Source of the DNA: a virus
Taxonomy: Duplodnaviria; Heunggongvirae; Uroviricota; Caudoviricetes
IMG/VR virus record: IMGVR_UViG_2654587570_000013
Coordinates: 1 to 35,061 of that record
Reading direction: 5' to 3' (one strand)
Length of the DNA stretch: 35,061 bases
In this document: positions 962 to 35,061 of the stretch, piece by piece
Position numbering within the stretch: position 1 is the first letter of the stretch
Layout of the letters: each line of letters opens with the position of its first letter
Made by a program: the position numbers and the translations under genes
The notes under the pieces: model-generated
What the model saw: the letters and a program-made list of their open reading frames with translations, nothing else
The model's database searches: none
What the model was told of the DNA's origin: nothing

Positions 962-998
962 GCCCCTATCGTTATAATACGCGGTAGGGGCGTTTTTG
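962..998 (+). terminator. putative rho-independent terminator
   Basis: GCCCCTA ... TAGGGGC stem followed by gttttt gttt. Confidence 0.5.
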
Positions 999-1010
999 TT
1001 TGGAAATGGT

Positions 1011-2690
1011 ATGAAAACTAAACTGTATTCGTATATTCGCTTCTCGTCTATGCGTCAGAATGATGGTTCGAGTTATGAACGACAAATCAGGATGGCGAGA
1101 GAGGTTGCGGCAAAGTATGACCTTGAACTGGTAAATGATTATCAGGATCTGGGTGTATCTGCGTTTAAGGGTGCTAACTCTAAAACAGGGGCGCTATCTC
1201 GTTTCCTTGATGCAATTGGTAGATCCGTTCCTGTTGGTAGCTGGCTATTCATCGAGAACTTGGACCGTTTATCCCGTGCCGATATTGTCAGTGCGCAGGA
1301 GTTATTCCTTTCAATAATCCGTAGGGGGATAACCATTGTTACTGGCATGGATAACAAGATCTACTCGCTGGATACTGTTACCGCTAACCCGATGGACCTG
1401 ATGTTCTCCATCCTTTTATTCATCCGTGGTAATGAGGAAAGCCAGACTAAGCGCAATCGTACTAACTCAAGCGCATTGATTAAGATTAAAGCTCATCAAG
1501 AAAATCCACAAAATCCGGCAGTGGCTATCGAGGAAGTTGGAAAGAATATGTGGTGGACTGATACCACTTCCGGTTATGTGTGTCCCGATCCGGTCTTCTT
1601 CCCTATTGTTCAGGAGGTTGTGGAATTACGCAGGAATGGACGGTCTACCGCCGAGATACTGGATCACCTTAACGCGACATATACACCACCACCAGCCGCA
1701 AGTCACAAGAGGCATTCAAACTGGTCACGAGCAATGATTGAAAGGTTGTTCCATACCCGCGCTTTGATTGGTATCAAGGAAATCTCTGTAGATGGCGTTA
1801 AGTATGAGTTAAAGGATTATTACCCTCGTGTGCTAGATGACGCTGAGTTTTATCACCTTAAGAAAAGCATTGGTGTTAGAGCATGTAACTATGGAGACAA
1901 AGAAGAAGCTAAACCGATCCCCCTGCTTAGTGGTGTTAATCTGCTGAAATGTGAACATTGCGGTTCCGCTATGGTTAAGGTGAAAGGAACTAACAAACGG
2001 CCTAACCAATATCGTTATTCATGCGATGCAATGCGCTCTAGTCGTATTGCATGTGTGCATACAAACTGGAGTTTTCGAGGTGATCAATTAGAGAAAGCTG
2101 TATTGCAATTGCTGGCTGATAAAATCTGGATTGCTGAGGATAAGGCTAATCCTGTTCCGGCTTTGAAAGTACAGATTGATGAGATATCACGCAAGATTGA
2201 TAACCTGATTACCCTTTCTGCTATGACTGGAGCAACGAAGGAGTTAGCCGACCAGATTACTACCCTCAATAGCGAGCGTGAAACACTCTATAATCAGATT
2301 AAGATGGCAGAAGAGGAAATGTATTCTGTGGACTCTCAAGGCTGGGAGAAGCTCGCAGAATTTGATTTAGAAGATGTTTATAACGAGGATCGCATTAAGG
2401 TCCGGTTTAAGATTAAGCAAGCTCTAAAACGGATCGGGTGTAGCAGGATTGACAAATACAAAAACTTGTTTGTATTGGAATACATTGATGGCAAGACCCA
2501 GAGAGTTGTAATAGAAAATTCAAGAGGACCGAGGAAAGGACAAATCTTTGTCGATTTGAAAACTATCAATGATAGGCAGATTCTGGAGAGTAACGGGCTT
2601 GTTCTGCATCCATGTTTAGACATGCTGACAGATAAAGACTGGAAGCCAGAAGAGGAAATACCAGGTCCATTACAGGAATTTGGAATTTAA
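1011..2690 (+). CDS. large serine recombinase (probable integrase)
   Basis: N-terminal resolvase-type catalytic domain with YIRFSSMRQ serine motif, a recombinase domain, a Cys-rich zinc ribbon (CEHCGS...C..C) and a C-terminal coiled coil. Start placed at MKTKL; the ORF track begins 15 nt earlier at 996. Confidence 0.85.
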   Translation: MKTKLYSYIRFSSMRQNDGSSYERQIRMAREVAAKYDLELVNDYQDLGVSAFKGANSKTGALSRFLDAIGRSVPVGSWLFIENLDRLSRADIVSAQELFLSIIRRGITIVTGMDNKIYSLDTVTANPMDLMFSILLFIRGNEESQTKRNRTNSSALIKIKAHQENPQNPAVAIEEVGKNMWWTDTTSGYVCPDPVFFPIVQEVVELRRNGRSTAEILDHLNATYTPPPAASHKRHSNWSRAMIERLFHTRALIGIKEISVDGVKYELKDYYPRVLDDAEFYHLKKSIGVRACNYGDKEEAKPIPLLSGVNLLKCEHCGSAMVKVKGTNKRPNQYRYSCDAMRSSRIACVHTNWSFRGDQLEKAVLQLLADKIWIAEDKANPVPALKVQIDEISRKIDNLITLSAMTGATKELADQITTLNSERETLYNQIKMAEEEMYSVDSQGWEKLAEFDLEDVYNEDRIKVRFKIKQALKRIGCSRIDKYKNLFVLEYIDGKTQRVVIENSRGPRKGQIFVDLKTINDRQILESNGLVLHPCLDMLTDKDWKPEEEIPGPLQEFGI

Positions 2691-25693: not shown

Positions 25694-27601
25694 TTAGAAC
25701 GATGTTACCCAACTACGGCCTCTATTTGGAGGTCTGACGATGTTTTGACGTTGCGGTCGTGTGATTGGCTTAGTTTCTTCGATTTGCTCGTTAGATTGCG
25801 ATTTAGGAGCTTTTACGGGTTCTTCGACAACGCGGTTTAAGCTGTCTTTCATTGCAATGAGTTTATCCCATGACATTTTTGAAAGGACGTAGCGAGAAGC
25901 CGCATAGCTATAAACCAGACAGTCGAGAGCCTCGTTTCGGGTACTACCTGGATTTTTCACCCAACGCACGCCAGTAGTAGTACGCTTGATGGATTCACTC
26001 AAAAGCTGATCGAGATAATCATCAGGAACGGTTTCTGATATCTCTAAACCAATATGAGGATTGTCTTTCAGGTTTCTAACCAGCATTTCACGAACAGCAG
26101 ATTTACCAACGTTAACACCCAGCATAAGCAATTCATGACCACCTGTGCGGGTAGGTTTAACCGGAATCACTGGAGCATTACCAGATGAACTACCTTTGAT
26201 CGCGTGTAGGTTCTTCCACTTACCGCAAATACGGTATCCGGCTTGAGTGAATCGACCGTTCGATGTATCAAGGAAGCTGGCGAGCATAGGAACACGATCA
26301 CCCGATACAGTAGTAAATTTGGTTTTATGGAAGTTGATTAATCTATCCCATACAGGGGATTCATATCGTTCACAGTTATGATCGTAAAAGCTGCGGTGAT
26401 CCAGAATGTAAACCTTATCTTTCGCTACACCTAAGATGGTAGTTTCTGCGCGATCTAATTGCTGGTCAGTACCCGCACATAAGAAAATCACGTCATCAGG
26501 GATATTCTCGATAGAAACATCTGTTTTGAGTTGTTCCAGTTCATTTGCTTCTACTGCCGTGTCCTGATCGTCGTATACCTTGCCTAACACGGTGTTAAAA
26601 AAGGATTGTAAATCAAAGGATTGCCACGCATGACTAAAATCAACCACACAAGCGCGAATCGTGCTGAAAGGTGAATACAGACGACTGATCCAGAATCCTG
26701 CTACCTCACTTTCACGGGTTGCTCTCCACTCTCCTTGTGCTACTGCCCTGATTCGTTCCCCTTCTGTCCATGCGTTCTTACAGTGGGGGCAAATATAACG
26801 AGCGGTATCAGGATCGGGTAAGTTCTTACCATCAATGTTACGCCATTCAAATTGAACGTTTTCCCACTCGATCACCTGGTGTCTACCGCAATGAGGACAC
26901 GGAACAAAAAACATACGCATATCGCTTGATAACCATTGCTGGTTAATGCTTCCCAGCTTACTGGTCGGGGTACTGGATACGACTAATCGACCTTCATCGC
27001 CAAAGGTAGTTAAACGGTTAGCAGCCAGTGCCACCGGATCACCTTCTTCTGAGGCTGTGGCAGCATCAATTTCGTCAAGTAATCCAACCTTTGCGGTCTT
27101 ACCACGTAGGGTTGATGGGCTGGTAAGCGATACCATGTACAGGAAGTGATTCGTTTTTAACTGGAGTTGGTTGTTGTTGTTAACCGCGTTGCGATCATTC
27201 TTGTCTGTAACCACGTCTTTCAATGCATCACATGCTTCGATAGACGGTCGGATCTTACCCGCGAGATATTGAGACATTTCTTTAGCGGTTGATTGTCCGA
27301 TAATCATATTGCATGGATCGTTAGCCATCTGGTTAAACAGGATACCGTTTAGGATGGTAGTTTTTCCGATCTGCGCACTGGTCATCAGTACATACTTTTT
27401 CTTATTCTCAAGGAAAGGAGCATCAATCATGCCTTTCTGGAATGACAGCAATTTAACTTTATCCCCCGCTTGAGGACCATCTACCAGCACCATATTCGCT
27501 TCGCACCATTCAGACGGAAGGAGCTTAGGCGGTGGAGTGATATATTTTGCGGCATTTTTAAGAATCTTTTTTAATTTTGCCTTATTAGAAATCAGTTTCA
27601 T
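25694..27601 (-). CDS. terminase large subunit (lambda gpA family)
   Basis: 635 aa; Walker A-like SAQIGKTT; VPCPHCG zinc motif; C-terminal [14 protein letters not shown] resembles lambda gpA RNEALDCFVYALAA as recalled; GAGGGT SD; first gene of the leftward operon. Confidence 0.9.
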
Positions 27602-27688
27602 GTAATTACCCTCATTACGAAATATGAAGGTATTTATTAAATTATTGATATTTTGATAAATACGGGTATTAAGATTTAAGGAGGGTGT

Positions 27689-28285
27689 ATGCTAATTAAT
27701 CAGCAAGAAAGAGATGAATTAGCCTTGTCTTGTACCGATCATGAATATCGTTTACCCGTTAAGCATAAGCATTTAAAAACCGATTACACAACATCTGGGT
27801 TTAGCCGTGAGGAAGCGAAAGAGATTTTAATAGAATTTTACCGTGATAATGGCTATAGAGACGTTCATAACTTCTTTAAGAAGCATCGCACATCACAGAC
27901 AGAGTTTCAGCGAGTCCGTGAGTGGTTTGATTTTGATATCAAGCGTTATTATCGCATTGATGACGGTCCTATCTATCGGTTGCAGTGGAAGCCGATCAGG
28001 GAAGTGTTGAAACAGAAGAGATTGAATCACGCAATTACACGCTATCGTAACGAGGCTTTCAAGAAAGGCTATGGTGATACAAGGGAACTATTCGTTGAAC
28101 TCGCTAACGTGAAGTACAGCCACTATTACAACGATCCTAAAGGGTTCTTTGAAGTGCTTCGCAAGGTTGATATAAGTCGGGGTACATATTATTCACGGTT
28201 GAAGAAGTACGGGATTAAGGCAGAGTTCTTTATGTCGGTTGACGATGGAGAACTTTTTCCGATAAAATGTAAGTCCTCTAAATAA
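27689..28285 (+). CDS. protein with two copies of a small HTH-like module (putative DNA-binding regulator)
   Basis: 198 aa; AAGGAGGG SD; two internal segments ([17 protein letters not shown]...FFKK and [17 protein letters not shown]) match the module found in the two small downstream proteins. Confidence 0.5.
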
Positions 28286-28314
28286 AGGTGAACATTCACT
28301 TTAATTTGGAGAAA

Positions 28315-28548
28315 ATGACTATGACTACTAAAGCTACTCGCGGTCGCCCTACCCGTTTTAATCGTGAACAGATGGCTGATATTGCCTACGCTTACTATAC
28401 AGCGGATCGTGGTAAGGAAGCGAAAGAACAGATTCTTAGTGAACATGGGATCTCAATCGCCCAATTCTATAAGAATATGAAGAAGTTAGACATTAAATTC
28501 TATGTTCAGATCGGTGATGGTCAGATCGTAGAAGCAACAGGTTTTTGA
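28315..28548 (+). CDS. small HTH-like DNA-binding protein (paralogue family)
   Basis: Start placed at ATG 28315 after GGAG; the ORF track starts at a GTG at 28288. RGRPTRFNREQMADIAYAYY ... GISIAQFYKNMKKLDI parallels the 31655 protein. Confidence 0.5.
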   Translation: MTMTTKATRGRPTRFNREQMADIAYAYYTADRGKEAKEQILSEHGISIAQFYKNMKKLDIKFYVQIGDGQIVEATGF

Positions 28549-28556
28549 TTCTCTTT

Positions 28557-28581
28557 GCCACTCTTCGGAGTGGCTTTTTTG
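28557..28581 (+). terminator. rho-independent terminator (UUCG tetraloop)
   Basis: GCCACTC-TTCG-GAGTGGC followed by TTTTTTG. Confidence 0.6.
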
Positions 28582-28707
28582 TATGTAAAACAATCGGCGC
28601 AAAACTGCGCTCATCTCTAAGTTGAGTCCAAATCTGGACTGATCTATAGATGCATCCAAATCTGGAGGGATGTGCTTAACTTTCAGCGCATCTACAGATA
28701 CAAAAAA

Positions 28708-28734: not shown

Positions 28735-29577
28735 TTACAGTCCGAAGGCTTCCAGAGTTCCGATATTCTTACGAATCAGTGCAGCCGTATTGTTGATAAT
28801 TGCACGAGCATTGTTTGGCTGCGGTAATTTCAAAGTTGCTACCGTCTCTTCCTCAATCAAGCCCAATTTAACCAGCACTGGTAAACAGTCAGTTGTGAAC
28901 TCAAGCTGACCATGTGCTGATTGTCGAGCGTACATGTAAGCAGGAGGAAGAACATCATAGCCGTTAGGCTTACCAGAAGCATCCAGACGACGCTCAATGT
29001 GTTTAGCCTCACATAATCCCTTAAGAATACGTTGTACCTTCGTAGAGCCTCGTTTTTCGCCTAATAAGCGGGTGAGACTGTGTGCGTCAATGGCACGTCT
29101 GATGTGGAGATCAACTAAACGTTTATTTTCGCGGGTTTTCTCTAATGCCAGTTCGATCCAATCGGTTTCTTCAAAGTGTTCATATGGATTAACCGGAACA
29201 TTAGCTTTACCTTCTTTCATCAAACGCCATTCTTTAGCAATTTTGAAGCGAAGCGGTGCATCGTATCCCATAACCAGAGTATTACAGAGATCTTCATCCA
29301 GTTCATACATCGGTTTATTACGATTCAGAGAATCTTTATAAGTCGTTTCTTTATAAAAACCGATGGGCGCAAAATTGCGCTCATCTCCTCCGACCAGTTT
29401 GCTACCCTTTTCAAGCGAATCAACCATATTACGAAAATCACGCATAACATCTTTATGATTCTTTCCGGTTAATTCCGCGATCTGCAAAGTAGACATGGTC
29501 AGCGGTTTGGTGTTATCAACAACCAGAGACACGGAAGCAGGTTTAATAGCAGTATTCATAGTAGTAACAGTATTCAT
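28735..29577 (-). CDS. Rha-family phage regulatory protein / antirepressor-like
   Basis: 280 aa; N-terminal LTMSTLQIAELTGKNHKDVMRDFRNMVDSL matches the Rha-type N-terminal DNA-binding signature. Confidence 0.6.
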   Translation of the reverse strand: MNTVTTMNTAIKPASVSLVVDNTKPLTMSTLQIAELTGKNHKDVMRDFRNMVDSLEKGSKLVGGDERNFAPIGFYKETTYKDSLNRNKPMYELDEDLCNTLVMGYDAPLRFKIAKEWRLMKEGKANVPVNPYEHFEETDWIELALEKTRENKRLVDLHIRRAIDAHSLTRLLGEKRGSTKVQRILKGLCEAKHIERRLDASGKPNGYDVLPPAYMYARQSAHGQLEFTTDCLPVLVKLGLIEEETVATLKLPQPNNARAIINNTAALIRKNIGTLEAFGL

Positions 29578-30394: not shown

Positions 30395-30967
30395 AGTGGT
30401 ATCCTCTAAAAGAAAGTGAATCAAACAAATTACACTAGTATTTATACGAGAAAAAAATATCTATTTGGAAGTGATTGGATTCAGTCGGCTTCGCCTCCTT
30501 CATGATTTTGATTAAATCATCATCAAAACGAAGGAGTATCTTTAGAATATAAGAATCTTTCTTTTGGAGAAATAATAATCAGGAAGCAATTTGGCAACCG
30601 AAGGTTGCAATCCCGAAGGGATACCAATACCTTTCTAGAAAGTGATTGTTACTCACTTCGTTCGTTTACTAGAATCAGTTAGTAACTAGCATTAAATCCC
30701 TTTCTAAGAAAATCCTTTCAAAAGTGAGTGAACGCCGTAGGCGTGAACGTGAGCGAAGCGAACTATCCAATCCCTTTCGAATCCTGCTTGCAGGTCTTAG
30801 AAGGTGTTGATGGGCGCTTCGCGCACGGCTACGCCGTATTCTTTTTGCGAGATCTTTCTTGAACGTAGTGAGAGAAAACGAGCAAAAAGGAGAACGTTAG
30901 TTCGAATTTTATATTCTATGGTCTGTGGGGTGAAATGTTTTTCAAGATCATACACTTATGAGATTGA

Positions 30968-31090
30968 AGTGTAGGGTTAGTGTAGGTGTGTAGGTTTCAT
31001 AGTGTAGGTTTGAGGGTGTTATAGTGTAGGTTTACTGGCTAGTGTAGTGTAGGCCAATCCCTTTAAAGTGTAGGTTTGTAGTGTAGGGTT
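30968..31090 (+). repeat. array of ~9 direct GTGTAGG(T/G)TT repeats (iteron-like)
   Basis: Copies start at 30969, 30980, 30988, 31002, 31024, 31047, 31068 and 31081, plus a degenerate copy at 31042; all same orientation with irregular 8-23 bp spacing, inside a 1.2-kb ORF-free region. Confidence 0.6.
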
Positions 31091-31284
31091 TTCATCAAAA
31101 ATTTTGATAGAAAATTCTTGTATATTATTTAATCAGAAAATCACCAAAAATCGCGGTAACTGCATGATTTAAAAGGAATGGTCAAAAGGTCACCGTGCTA
31201 TAATAGGTTATAAAGGTTGATAATCGTTATCCGCCATTTTCACACAAAAATTTTGATAGTCTTTTCTCGTTTAGGTCAAGTGTA

Positions 31285-31313
31285 TTGACAACTGTCAAGG
31301 ATTATTTTATACT
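31285..31313 (+). promoter_or_regulatory. near-consensus sigma70 promoter (rightward) with overlapping palindromic operator-like site
   Basis: TTGACA - 17 nt - TATACT; the -35 element is part of the palindrome TTGACA-ac-TGTCAA. Confidence 0.5.
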
Positions 31314-31654
31314 TTTTATCGCTGGTGGGGGTTGAAATTTTCTAAACAGCCCCCATATAGATGATAAGCAAGATTTTTCGTGTATAAATACATGCATGAA
31401 ATGATTGTTCACTTCTGAAAATCCCCTGATTCACTGTTAACACATACAGCACTGGTTAAACACACAGTGCTTTTTCGATTAAATAATGTACGAAATGATT
31501 AATTATTAATCTTCTCTTTAGCAATTCGTGCTCCCACTGATCGGATATACAGTGGTTTTACAGGGTTTTCTGAAATGACTTTTATAAATAGAAGTATCGA
31601 GGGCGAAAAGCTCTTTTTATTGTCCTTATTAATCCACATTTGAGGAATCTACTT

Positions 31655-31834
31655 ATGGCTAGACCTGTTAAGTTTACTCGTGAAATGATTGTTGATATTG
31701 CTAAACGCTTTTATGGCGATACTGAACGAGGCGGCGAGAATTTCTTTAAGAAGGAAGGAATTGATAGAAGCGGATTCTATAAGTTAATGAAGAAATACGA
31801 AATTCAGATAAAGATTAACGTTCAAGTTTGTTAA
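31655..31834 (+). CDS. small HTH-like DNA-binding protein (paralogue family)
   Basis: Start placed at MARPVKF, which has a TGAGGA SD; the ORF track starts at 31640. ARPVKFTREMIVDIAKRFY ... GFYKLMKKYEI parallels the 28315 protein. Confidence 0.5.
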   Translation: MARPVKFTREMIVDIAKRFYGDTERGGENFFKKEGIDRSGFYKLMKKYEIQIKINVQVC

Positions 31835-33313: not shown

Positions 33314-33330
33314 CCGCCCCGAAGGGGCGG
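33314..33330 (-). terminator. hairpin terminator (UUCG loop on the minus strand)
   Basis: CCGCCCC-GAA-GGGGCGG; T-rich on the minus side. Confidence 0.45.
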
Positions 33331-33479: not shown

Positions 33480-33653
33480 TTATTTAGTGTCTGATTTATA
33501 GCAACTAAAAAGAATAAACAGGATTAAACATACCCAGCCGTAAGGCGTACCGATTAGAAATTTGAAAAACACCACCAGCGATATAAAAATCAATTTAATG
33601 CCAGCGACGATAGTCAAAAACAGCAGAGTAGCAAAGTAGACAAAAAGATCCAT
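33480..33653 (-). CDS. small membrane protein (57 aa), speculative
   Basis: AGAGGA SD; translation MDLFVYFATLLFLTIVAGIKLIFISLVVFFKFLIGTPYGWVCLILFILFSCYK... has 2-3 predicted transmembrane segments. Below the ORF-track cutoff. Confidence 0.4.
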   Translation of the reverse strand: MDLFVYFATLLFLTIVAGIKLIFISLVVFFKFLIGTPYGWVCLILFILFSCYKSDTK

Positions 33654-33706
33654 AGATAATCCTCTTTGAAAACGACCATCATCTATAGTTCAATTCATCG
33701 ATTTAA

Positions 33707-33808
33707 TTAATGATACTTGAAAGCATTACACACAGCAGAAATGCCAATGTGAGCAAATGAATATACGATAGTTAATCCTACAGCCAGATAAATCAAAAAT
33801 TCAACCAT
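33707..33808 (-). CDS. small membrane peptide (33 aa), speculative
   Basis: GAGGA SD; translation MVEFLIYLAVGLTIVYSFAHIGISAVCNAFKYH is a single transmembrane helix. Confidence 0.3.
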   Translation of the reverse strand: MVEFLIYLAVGLTIVYSFAHIGISAVCNAFKYH

Positions 33809-33904
33809 AGGTAAATCCTCAAATAAGAAAAAGGTTAGCGGGGGATGTTCTCCCCCGTAGACGTTGACCATCAACATCTTTCATACATTTATTTATAACG
33901 CGTT

Positions 33905-34456
33905 TTAAGACACATCAAATTCATCGTCTTCTTCTGGTTCTTGTTCCGGTTCATCCATTAATGGTAATTCTTCTTCCTCGTCTTCTCCTAAATCCGCATT
34001 TTCGAACAAGTCCCCTACTTCATTTAAACGACGCTCGATGATCTCCCTTAGCTTATTCTTCAATGTTTTCTGGTCGGTGGCAGATTCAAGAATTTCTAAA
34101 GCGTCGATTGTGGCGATCTGCAAAATAGTCTGTTTCACCTTCCCGCAATATTCCGCTAGTTCCTGCTCAACATACCCGACCGGAATCAGGAGGTTCATTG
34201 CTTCCTGGTTCTCTCGTTCGGCTGCATCTGCTAATGCTCTCTCACGGCGTAATTTCTCTACGTCGATTTGTTCCTTGACAGTAGTTTCCCTGAGTGGACT
34301 GATGATATTTTTTGCTACCCACTCGGTCCCCTCTTTGAGTGGCACGCGGCGGGTATTGGTATTGTAAGGTAGTCCCCTTTCTAACCATTTCTTAGCGGCG
34401 TTAATTGTATAGCCGTATAAGCGGGAAATTTCTGTAAGGGTTAATTCTTCTTTCAT
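33905..34456 (-). CDS. HTH DNA-binding protein with acidic C-terminal tail (Nu1/terminase-small-subunit-like N-terminus; alternatively a regulator)
   Basis: 183 aa; N-terminal LTLTEISRLYGYTINAAKKWLERGLPY resembles the Nu1-type HTH; central coiled coil; DEEEELPLMDEPEQEPEEDDEFD tail. Confidence 0.5.
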   Translation of the reverse strand: MKEELTLTEISRLYGYTINAAKKWLERGLPYNTNTRRVPLKEGTEWVAKNIISPLRETTVKEQIDVEKLRRERALADAAERENQEAMNLLIPVGYVEQELAEYCGKVKQTILQIATIDALEILESATDQKTLKNKLREIIERRLNEVGDLFENADLGEDEEEELPLMDEPEQEPEEDDEFDVS

Positions 34457-34755
34457 CCGGTTATCCTCCTTTAAATTTGCGTAAAATTATTTATCTGATC
34501 TGCGCATTCAGGAGAGCGCCTAAAACGCTTTATAACGAAGGGAAAGATCGAGGCATGGAAAGGGATTGGCGTGTGTTAATAGTCGCGTAGCGACCGCGCT
34601 GGTGGGCTGCACTGCACCTGTTTTGAAATCTCACACGCACATCAAATACCGGGGTGCCGAAAACTCCCTTTATTTCACCCGTGGAACAGTACCTTTTGAT
34701 TTTGTCAAGTCTTTTTTATAAATAATCGAAAATATTTTTCACACGAGGGCAAATC

Positions 34756-35061
34756 ATGAAGACTAAAGATATTAAGATTGAATTTGAAACTGTTGATGAC
34801 GTTCGGGAACATCGCATTGATTCTACTGGCTGCATCTTCCAGCTTACTAACTCCCCTATTGGATTGATTATCTATGTAGCAGAAGATGACGTGTACGCTA
34901 TATGGGATGGACAGGATGAGTTTAAAGGCGGGAATAGCCATCTGATCAATACTCATGAGGGATTTGATCCGACTCCTGTCTGTATGCTTGCTTATCACGT
35001 AACACTGGATGAACTACCGGAAGCAAGCGCGCGTATCCGTAGAATGAAAGACATTAAGTGA
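34756..35061 (+). CDS. hypothetical protein
   Basis: 101-aa ORF with AGGG SD and an upstream TTGTCAAG-containing promoter-like region; ends at the window edge with a stop codon. Confidence 0.45.
   Translation: MKTKDIKIEFETVDDVREHRIDSTGCIFQLTNSPIGLIIYVAEDDVYAIWDGQDEFKGGNSHLINTHEGFDPTPVCMLAYHVTLDELPEASARIRRMKDIK

What the first reader, a model, noticed from the sequence alone, without database searches (positions are those of the whole stretch)
33905..34755. No terminase small subunit next to TerL; a Nu1-like HTH gene sits 6 kb away beside a GC-rich palindromic noncoding stretch
TerL is the first gene of the leftward operon and faces a divergent promoter region, so no TerS gene is adjacent to it. 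The only Nu1-like protein (33905..34456) is separated from TerL by the early region. Directly upstream of it is a ~300-bp ORF-free region containing the palindrome GTCGCGTAGCGAC (34582-34594) and a GCGACC motif reminiscent of the lambda cohesive end. This could be the cos site and TerS in an unusual split arrangement. It could also be an unrelated regulator, in which case TerS is one of the small HTH proteins at 27689-28548.
Basis: inference. Interest (0 to 1): 0.55.

Follow-up and report, generated by a model that had tools for sequence, protein, structure and literature searches.

The report
Lambda-type terS and candidate cos, displaced from terL
In this E. coli prophage the small terminase gene, a distant relative of lambda Nu1, and a conserved DNA element that is probably the packaging site sit 6.3 kb from the large terminase gene, a gene-order variant shared by a whole clade of enterobacterial prophages but otherwise ordinary lambda-type packaging.

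Summary
terL (25694..27601, -) opens the late operon and has no terS beside it. The 183-aa ORF (33905..34456, -) lies 6.3 kb upstream on the same strand, behind a 299-nt ORF-free stretch.

The 183-aa protein is the cognate small terminase. It falls in the same PHROG as lambda Nu1, aligns to Nu1 by profile comparison, and has a Nu1-like winged helix-turn-helix. In about 58 more distant relatives its ortholog directly abuts a gpA-type terL. The split is therefore a derived, clade-wide arrangement, seen in E. coli, Salmonella and Proteus. The alternative TerS candidates at 27689-28548 show no TerS signal.

Whether the noncoding stretch is cos is plausible but unproven. The palindrome does sit in a 25-nt island that is invariant in E. 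coli and kept in Salmonella.

The stronger signal is a bipartite element at 34632-34705: AGGTWCT, a 19-23 nt hypervariable spacer, then GAGTTTTCGGCAC. It lies upstream of terS in most relatives that have upstream sequence, always in the same orientation, and occurs once in the window. It follows terS, not terL. Virion DNA ends were not determined. This is a modest variant of a known system.

The parts
25694..27601 (-). terL, gpA-type large terminase; first gene of the leftward late operon
   Evidence: Pfam GpA_ATPase 4.6e-56 and GpA_nuclease 6.8e-44; phrog_15 1.5e-136
27602..27688 (.). 87-nt AT-rich divergent intergenic region between terL and a 198-aa ORF; holds no terS and no copy of the conserved element
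   Evidence: 26% GC
33905..34456 (-). terS: Nu1-family small terminase. N-terminal winged HTH (about residues 1-40), long helix 40-88, helical domain 93-152, disordered acidic tail ending EFDVS
   Evidence: phrog_57 E=4.4e-15 over the full length; lambda Nu1 is itself in phrog_57 (1.3e-76); hhalign against Nu1 prob 92.5%, E=4.8e-7; AF2 model and Foldseek top hits 7lw0, 1j9i, 6hn7; orthologs abut terL in about 58 relatives
33480..33877 (-). two small hydrophobic ORFs (56 and 57 aa) downstream of terS on the same strand; function unknown
   Evidence: no family hit
33314..33330 (-). terminator-like hairpin CCGCCCC-TTC-GGGGCGG followed by a T-run; probable end of the short terS operon
34478..34506 (-). 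inverted repeat TGCGYA-N17-TACGCA (TGCGTAA-N16-TTACGCA in other members) bracketing a -10-like TAnnnT, just upstream of the RBS; candidate promoter/operator of terS (inference)
   Evidence: conserved in E. coli, L022/L023 and Salmonella members; not called by the sigma-70 consensus scan
34575..34599 (.). Candidate protein-binding site
   Evidence: invariant in E. coli members while the flanks diverge; its 16-nt core GCGGTCGCTACGCGAC is kept in Salmonella L359; absent in L022/L023 and Proteus
34632..34705 (-). family-wide bipartite element: left flank AAAAGGTACTG (34687-34697), hypervariable spacer (about 34667-34686), right flank GAGTTTTCGGCACC (34653-34666), then ..GTGTGA. Best cos / packaging-recognition candidate
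   Evidence: found upstream of terS in the same orientation in most relatives that have upstream sequence, from every clade sampled; leave-clade-out nhmmer gives a single hit in the window, E=1.9e-6; 35 distinct spacers of 19-23 nt
34700..34713 (-). AAGACTTGACAAAA box; outer limit of conservation. Beyond it the cargo genes differ between prophages
34756..35061 (+). variable cargo ORF (101 aa) between the conserved element and the prophage end; replaced by an LprI-family gene in other members

Best explanation
The window is a nearly complete temperate siphovirus prophage with a serine integrase. It is found inserted in hicB, or beside a truncated cytosine-permease gene, in E. coli. Its packaging machinery is lambda-type.

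Shown:
- The 183-aa ORF is the small terminase, a remote homolog of lambda Nu1.
- In this lineage terS, together with about 255 nt of conserved upstream DNA, has been separated from terL by the 5.6-8.7 kb early/regulatory region.
- Relatives keep the ancestral overlapping terS-terL arrangement.

Inferred:
- The conserved upstream DNA is the packaging recognition region.
- The bipartite element at 34632-34705 would be the site where the gpA-type TerL nuclease makes staggered nicks. Either the GC-rich 5' half of the variable spacer is the cohesive end, or the whole spacer is a longer overhang.
- The more proximal conserved blocks (34620-34650 and the 25-nt palindrome island at 34575-34599) would be TerS winged-HTH binding sites, equivalent to cosB.
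- Packaging would then run from the element through terS, as in lambda.
- terS would be expressed from its own promoter/operator (34478-34506) as a short operon ending at the hairpin at 33314-33330.
- TerS would reach TerL in trans through its acidic C-terminal tail and the basic TerL N-terminus.
For: - TerS identity: phrog_57 E=4.4e-15 over the full length. Lambda Nu1 scores 1.3e-76 against the same PHROG. hhalign against Nu1 gives 92.5% probability, E=4.8e-7. The AF2 model has a winged HTH whose best PDB matches are TerS DNA-binding domains 7lw0, 1j9i (Nu1) and 6hn7. Profile search of PDB sequences gives weak hits to the same chains.
- Synteny: in all canonical-clade loci that hold both genes (about 58; TerS 37-38% and TerL 37-41% identical to the window's in the two reference loci L025/L026), the two tblastn matches lie -28 to +74 nt apart in all but three, where the TerL match is N-terminally truncated. 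In all 23 window-clade IMG/VR loci the gap is 5.9-8.7 kb on the same strand. The same holds in Salmonella (6.4 kb) and Proteus (5.6 kb).
- Element: it lies upstream of terS in one orientation, 69 to about 800 nt away, in most relatives that have upstream sequence, from every clade sampled. It occurs once in the 35-kb window and has no copy at terL.
- It is probably not the terS promoter or leader: in the L177/L186/L205 types an opposite-strand 187-aa gene lies between it and terS.
- There is no RNA structure signal: z=+0.42, covariation term 0.02.
- The right flank resembles the sequence immediately right of the lambda cosN nick. The family PSSM ranks lambda positions 11-28 fourth of 97,370.
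- Portal, head-tail joining protein and TerL are all lambda-type, which raises the prior for a cos site upstream of the Nu1 homolog.
- The two TerL alleles (58% identical) that pair with one TerS type share an identical N-terminal 16 residues.
Against: - No physical ends were observed. Searches for contigs ending inside the element found no pile-up.
- A profile of the whole element does not find lambda cos in a search of the circularised lambda genome (best hit elsewhere, E=1). The left flank is not lambda-like (rank 1361). The right-flank test was done after the resemblance had been noticed.
- A hypervariable centre is unlike lambdoid cosN, whose cohesive ends are conserved (general knowledge).
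- Conserved flanks around an unconstrained, fixed-length spacer would also fit a promoter or a bipartite binding site for another protein.
- No clear repeated R-type sites or IHF consensus were found in 34457-34712.
- Phage DCP80, the only isolated phage with homologs, lacks the element in its first 30 kb.
Confidence: 0.6

Rival explanations
1. The 183-aa protein is TerS, but the 255-nt conserved stretch is only transcriptional control DNA. On this reading the bipartite element is a phage-specific late promoter or activator site, and the inverted repeat is an operator. cos or pac lies elsewhere.
For: Conserved flanks around a fixed-length unconstrained spacer look like a promoter. The 3' half of the spacer is A/T-rich (31% GC), like a degenerate -10. 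In canonical relatives the element sits 69-136 nt upstream of the first late gene. An operator-like inverted repeat brackets a -10-like hexamer next to the RBS.
Against: The sigma-70 scan finds nothing on the terS strand in 34457-34755, and spacings to TTGACA do not fit. The element stayed with terS, not with terL and the 25-kb structural operon, when the two were separated, and there is no second copy. In several relatives an opposite-strand gene lies between the element and terS.
Confidence: 0.25
2. The phage packages by a headful (pac) mechanism, or has ends of another type. The conserved element is a TerS recognition site without precise cohesive-end cutting.
For: Ends were never observed here. 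Small terminases also recognise pac sites close to or within terS in pac phages (general knowledge; review PMC9611059).
Against: TerL, portal and TerS are all of the lambda gpA / portal_2 / Nu1 families. In characterised phages these are associated with 5' cohesive ends (general knowledge, not tested here).
Confidence: 0.1
3. The 183-aa protein is not a terminase subunit. It is a MerR/Xis-like DNA-binding regulator or a recombination directionality factor for the serine integrase, given its position near the prophage end.
For: The winged-HTH fold also matches excisionases (RdfS 8dgl, Pukovnik Xis 4j2n) and BldC. There is no Pfam or NCBIfam hit. The gene lies within about 0.7-1.8 kb of attR.
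Against: The match to the Nu1 PHROG covers the full length. The gene is tightly adjacent to or overlapping terL in about 58 relatives, and TerS and TerL have diverged to a similar degree. No other TerS candidate exists in the window.
Confidence: 0.04
4. The conserved leader acts as a structured RNA (riboswitch, antiterminator or sRNA) upstream of terS.
For: It is a long (255 nt), conserved, relatively GC-rich 5' region.
Against: The MFE is no better than shuffles (z=+0.42). The RNAalifold covariation term is 0.02 and the helices are not supported in the divergent members. There is no Rfam match. Flank variants show no compensatory pattern.
Confidence: 0.02

Closest known systems
Bacteriophage lambda cos-Nu1-A packaging module
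   Same: The TerL is gpA-type, the portal is lambda-family, and the TerS is Nu1-family with an N-terminal winged HTH. A conserved noncoding region lies directly upstream of terS in the position of cosN-cosB. The right flank of the element resembles lambda positions 13-25.
   Different: terS is 6.3 kb from terL instead of overlapping it, and has its own short operon and terminator. TerS misses the Pfam Phage_Nu1 model. The candidate nicking region has a hypervariable 19-23 nt centre, unlike the conserved 12-nt cohesive end of lambda. No R-site repeats are evident.
Uncharacterised prophage relatives with canonical terS-terL (IMG/VR loci L025, L026, L148-L207)
   Same: They have the same TerS and TerL families and, in most loci, the same bipartite element upstream of terS in the same orientation.
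   Different: There terS abuts or overlaps terL. Some carry an opposite-strand 187-aa gene between the element and terS.
Phages whose terS is remote from terL (Pseudomonas phage E217, cited in review PMC9611059)
   Same: The two terminase genes are not adjacent, so the subunits must assemble in trans.
   Different: E217 is a large lytic myovirus with the genes about 58 kb apart. Its terminase families were not compared with this one here. In this window the system is lambda-type, and the ancestral adjacent state is visible in close relatives.

Membership tests
Lambda Nu1-type small terminase (PHROG 57 / Pfam PF07471 Phage_Nu1) | Sequence membership in the family profile | tested here: met
   phrog_57 E=4.4e-15, residues 1-168 against profile positions 9-190 of 199. 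Lambda Nu1 scores 1.3e-76 against the same PHROG. hhalign against Nu1 gives prob 92.5%, E=4.8e-7.
Lambda Nu1-type small terminase (PHROG 57 / Pfam PF07471 Phage_Nu1) | Passes the curated Pfam Phage_Nu1 model | tested here: not met
   No Pfam hit, even at E<=10. It is therefore a remote relative, not a member of the Pfam-defined family.
Lambda Nu1-type small terminase (PHROG 57 / Pfam PF07471 Phage_Nu1) | N-terminal winged helix-turn-helix DNA-binding domain followed by helical oligomerisation region | tested here: met
   AF2 model, pLDDT 74. Strand-helix-helix-strand, then helices 40-88 and 93-152. Foldseek top hits are 7lw0, 1j9i and 6hn7, with probabilities 0.93-0.97 but E of about 0.3-0.6.
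Lambda Nu1-type small terminase (PHROG 57 / Pfam PF07471 Phage_Nu1) | Gene immediately upstream of the large terminase gene | tested here: not met
   6.3 kb apart in the window and 5.6-8.7 kb apart throughout the clade. The feature is met in the more distant relatives.
Lambda Nu1-type small terminase (PHROG 57 / Pfam PF07471 Phage_Nu1) | Binds cognate cos/pac DNA and the large terminase | not testable with these tools
   Only indirect evidence: an acidic TerS tail, and a basic TerL N-terminus conserved between two divergent alleles.
Lambda-type cos site | Staggered nicks that give fixed cohesive ends on virion DNA | not testable with these tools
   Contig-end surveys were uninformative.
Lambda-type cos site | Unique conserved cis element next to terS, in fixed orientation | tested here: met
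   One hit in the window, E=1.9e-6, with a profile built from the other clades. The element is present upstream of terS in most relatives sampled.
Lambda-type cos site | Sequence similarity to lambda cosN | tested here: inconclusive
   The whole-element profile does not find lambda cos. The right-flank PSSM ranks the lambda cosN-adjacent sequence 4th of 97,370. The left flank ranks 1361st.
Lambda-type cos site | Repeated TerS-binding (R) sites and an IHF site between cosN and terS | tested here: inconclusive
   No convincing repeats were found. Only conserved blocks, a palindrome island and an inverted repeat are present.
Sigma-70 promoter | -35 and -10 hexamers at 16-18 nt spacing on the terS strand | tested here: not met
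   No site on the minus strand in 34457-34755.
Structured cis-regulatory RNA | Stable fold, covariation, or an Rfam match | tested here: not met
   z=+0.42; covariation term 0.02; no Rfam hit.

The most novel reading that the evidence does not exclude
The terS gene with its recognition element behaves as a free-standing, exchangeable packaging-specificity cassette next to attP. One TerS type (90-97% identical) works with TerL alleles that are only 58% identical. On this reading the contact runs through a short conserved interface: the acidic EFDVS tail of TerS and the basic 16-residue N-terminus of TerL. TerS is expressed from its own regulated promoter, uncoupled from the late operon. The hypervariable centre of the element would then be a long cohesive end that evolves unusually fast.
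Probability: 0.2. Interest if true: 0.5.

Novelty: new variant of a known kind. Interest (0 to 1): 0.3.

Why it matters
- Annotation: in this prophage family TerS is mostly labelled 'hypothetical protein'. The family is present in 64 of 5,426 complete E. coli genomes and also in Salmonella and Proteus. In one strain it carries mcr-1.
- A natural experiment: the conserved element followed terS, not terL, when the two genes were separated. That argues it serves DNA recognition rather than late transcription.
- A concrete target: this gives a short, testable candidate packaging site. Such a site is relevant to predicting transduction and to building cos-plasmid tools for these phages.
- Limits: it does not change the understanding of terminases. 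Non-adjacent terminase genes are already documented (PMC9611059).

Tried and rejected
1. Homology of the element to lambda cos. After noticing that AGGTTAC...CGCGGGTTTTCGC in lambda resembles the flanks, I searched a circularised lambda genome with an nhmmer profile of the whole element. cos was not recovered. Only the right flank scores well, and the left flank does not. I keep this as suggestive only.
2. Physical ends from public assemblies. I scanned IMG/VR and JGI metagenome contigs for right-flank motifs and looked up short Logan, ENA and NCBI contigs carrying terS. Contig ends do not pile up in the element. One Logan contig starts 2 nt before GGTACT and one IMG/VR contig starts 8 nt before AGGTTCT. 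Both are more likely assembly-graph breaks.
3. Structured RNA leader: rejected.
4. Sigma-54 and sigma-70 readings of the element: by eye the spacings do not fit, and the scan finds nothing.
5. Two-fold symmetry or covariation between the ACTC and GAGT flanks: the variants do not co-vary.
6. The ORFs at 27689-28548 as TerS: no family support.
7. Genome-collection scan for relatives: the patterns matched, but none was confirmed.
8. Isolated-phage relatives: only DCP80, which lacks the element and may be a chimeric record.

Full report
What the window is. The 35,061-nt window is colinear with prophages in 64 of 5,426 complete E. coli genomes. In strain 2014EL-1346-6 the element splits hicB. In strain 06-00048 it ends beside a truncated cytosine-permease gene less than 90 nt beyond the window's last ORF. 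So the window is essentially a whole prophage. It encodes a large serine recombinase (996..2690). It also has a 25-kb leftward late operon: gpA-type TerL, a head-tail joining protein, a lambda-family portal, a capsid fusion protein, siphovirus tail genes, a tape measure, tail fibres and an endolysin.

Checking the observation. TerL (25694..27601, -) is the first gene of that operon. Only 87 AT-rich nucleotides separate it from a divergent 198-aa ORF. The 183-aa ORF is at 33905..34456 (-). The 299 nt upstream of it hold no credible ORF, and GTCGCGTAGCGAC is at 34582-34594. Only the central 100 nt are GC-rich (55%). A 5-bp-arm palindrome is expected by chance in 300 nt (P=0.22), and GCGACC occurs 14 times on the two strands of the window. 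So the description is accurate, but those two sequence cues carry no statistical weight on their own.

The protein is the small terminase.
- Pfam and NCBIfam give nothing.
- PHROGs places the whole protein in phrog_57 'terminase small subunit' (E=4.4e-15). Lambda Nu1 itself belongs to that PHROG (1.3e-76).
- A profile of 22 homologs aligns to Nu1 with 92.5% probability (E=4.8e-7).
- The AlphaFold model (pLDDT 74) has an N-terminal winged helix-turn-helix, a long helix, a helical domain and a disordered acidic tail.
- Its best PDB matches are TerS DNA-binding domains, including Nu1 (1j9i). The E-values are weak, and excisionases with the same fold also appear.

The strongest evidence is synteny. 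IMG/VR holds two more distant clades, whose reference loci (L025, L026) are 37-38% identical in TerS and 37-41% in TerL. In every one of about 58 loci from these clades that hold both genes, the ortholog sits directly upstream of, or overlapping, a gpA-type terL. The measured gap is -28 to +74 nt in all but three, where the TerL match is N-terminally truncated.

The split is a clade trait. In all 23 IMG/VR loci of the window's clade the two genes lie 5.9-8.7 kb apart on the same strand. The same holds in Salmonella (6.4 kb) and Proteus (5.6 kb), where TerS identity falls to about 52%. The split arrangement is therefore derived, stable and widespread in Enterobacterales. It is not an assembly artefact or a decaying prophage. 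Within the clade the modules reassort. One TerS type (90-97% identical) is combined with two TerL alleles that are only about 58% identical, and a 56% TerS is combined with a 79-83% TerL. The two TerL alleles share an identical 16-residue basic N-terminus, [16 protein letters not shown], and a more conserved C-terminus. All TerS variants keep an acidic tail ending in EFDVS or EFEVI. I take this, by inference only, as the trans-acting TerS-TerL contact. In lambda the Nu1 C-terminus binds the gpA N-terminus (general knowledge).

The noncoding stretch. Alignment of the upstream regions shows that conservation begins abruptly at about 34713 (AAGACTTGACAA on the minus strand) and runs 255 nt to the terS start codon. 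Beyond that point the cargo genes differ between prophages. Three layers can be told apart.

(i) Next to the RBS lies an inverted repeat TGCGYA...TACGCA (34478-34506). It brackets a -10-like TAnnnT and is conserved in E. coli, L022/L023 and Salmonella. This looks like a promoter/operator, though the consensus scan does not call it.

(ii) A GC-rich core contains a 25-nt island (34575-34599) that is invariant in the E. coli members while its flanks diverge. Its 16-nt core is kept in Salmonella, and it is absent from L022/L023 and Proteus.

(iii) Furthest from terS is a bipartite element (34632-34705): AAAAGGTACTG, about 20 nt of spacer, GAGTTTTCGGCACC, then ..GTGTGA.

The element in layer (iii) is the important feature. 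It is present upstream of terS, always in the same orientation, in most relatives that have upstream sequence, from every clade sampled. The distance to terS is 69, 120, 136 or 200 nt, or about 650-800 nt. A profile built only from the canonical-arrangement clades finds exactly one significant match in the whole window, at 34702-34641 (E=1.9e-6). There is no second copy near terL. The flanks are conserved, but the 19-23 nt spacer has 35 distinct sequences. It is GC-rich in its first 10 nt (55%) and A/T-rich after that (31%). It varies even between prophages whose surrounding leader is more than 90% identical.

What the element most likely is. Four observations point to a DNA-level site tied to TerS.
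- It is unique in the genome.
- When terS and terL were separated it stayed with terS, not with the structural operon.
- In several relatives an opposite-strand 187-aa gene sits between it and terS, which does not suit a terS promoter or leader.
- There is no RNA-structure signal: z=+0.42, covariation term 0.02, no Rfam hit.

Given a lambda-type TerL, portal and Nu1 homolog, the best reading is the packaging recognition region, cos. The element would be the nicking site and the proximal conserved blocks would be TerS binding sites. The right flank matches the lambda sequence immediately right of the cosN nick (CGCGGGTTTTCGC). The family PSSM ranks that lambda position 4th of 97,370. However, the whole-element profile does not recover lambda cos, and the left flank is not lambda-like. 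That test was also post hoc, so I count it as suggestive only.

Against the cos reading, the centre is hypervariable whereas lambdoid cohesive ends are conserved. No R-type repeats were found. Attempts to find contigs that terminate inside the element failed. The main rival is a phage-specific promoter or other bipartite protein site, with cos elsewhere. I put cos at roughly 0.55-0.6 and TerS identity at about 0.9.

Comparison with what is known, and verdict. The review PMC9611059 says that TerS genes typically neighbour TerL but that this is not universal, citing phage E217 with about 58 kb between them. The split is therefore not unprecedented. What is specific here is a lambda-type module whose terS-plus-recognition-DNA cassette has been moved to the attP-proximal end of the genome. 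The ancestral adjacent state is still visible in relatives, and the modules reassort. That makes it a new variant of a known kind, of modest interest. Its main value is a correct annotation for a common enterobacterial prophage family and a short, well-defined candidate packaging site to test.

Noticed in passing
window 30425-31639 (repeats at 30964-31090): A 1.2-kb ORF-free stretch holds five iteron-like copies of AGTGTAGG(T/G)TT. It may be an origin or an operator array. No recognisable replication protein is encoded in the window.
   Followed up: no
window 28288-28548 and 31640-31834: Two paralogous small proteins (86 and 64 aa) sit at either side of the early region. Their function is unknown and no family hit was found.
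   Followed up: partly
window 28576-28617 and 29346-29387: A 42-nt direct repeat (81% identical) containing GGGCGCAAAAYTGCGCTCATCTC. One copy is downstream of the Rha-family gene and the other lies inside its 5' part.
   Followed up: no
window 25694-27601 versus L002, L005, L012: Two TerL alleles only about 58% identical circulate with nearly identical TerS. The alleles share an identical 16-aa N-terminus and a 74-84% identical C-terminus.
   Followed up: partly
L001 (NZ_CP024232) and L234 (NZ_CP015229): The same prophage type is inserted in hicB in one strain and beside a truncated cytosine-permease gene in another. This suggests either two integration sites or integrase variants.
   Followed up: no
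NZ_CP044443 (strain HeN100), hit H46: In this relative the region between terL and terS carries mcr-1.1 together with ISApl1 and ISKpn26.
   Followed up: no
L147 (Escherichia phage DCP80, PQ671644.1, 1-30000): This 141-kb record is filed under Straboviridae. It begins with a block of gpA-type terL followed by mostly unannotated ORFs, and has the Nu1-like gene 22 kb downstream, after the endolysin. It may be a chimeric assembly, and it lacks the conserved element.
   Followed up: partly
L177 2429-2992, L186 7249-7821, L205 5168-5728: A conserved gene of about 187 aa with no family hit is inserted on the opposite strand between the conserved element and terS in some canonical-arrangement relatives.
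   Followed up: partly
window 33480-33877: Two small hydrophobic ORFs (56 and 57 aa) follow terS, with a strong terminator-like hairpin at 33314-33330. Their function is unknown.
   Followed up: partly
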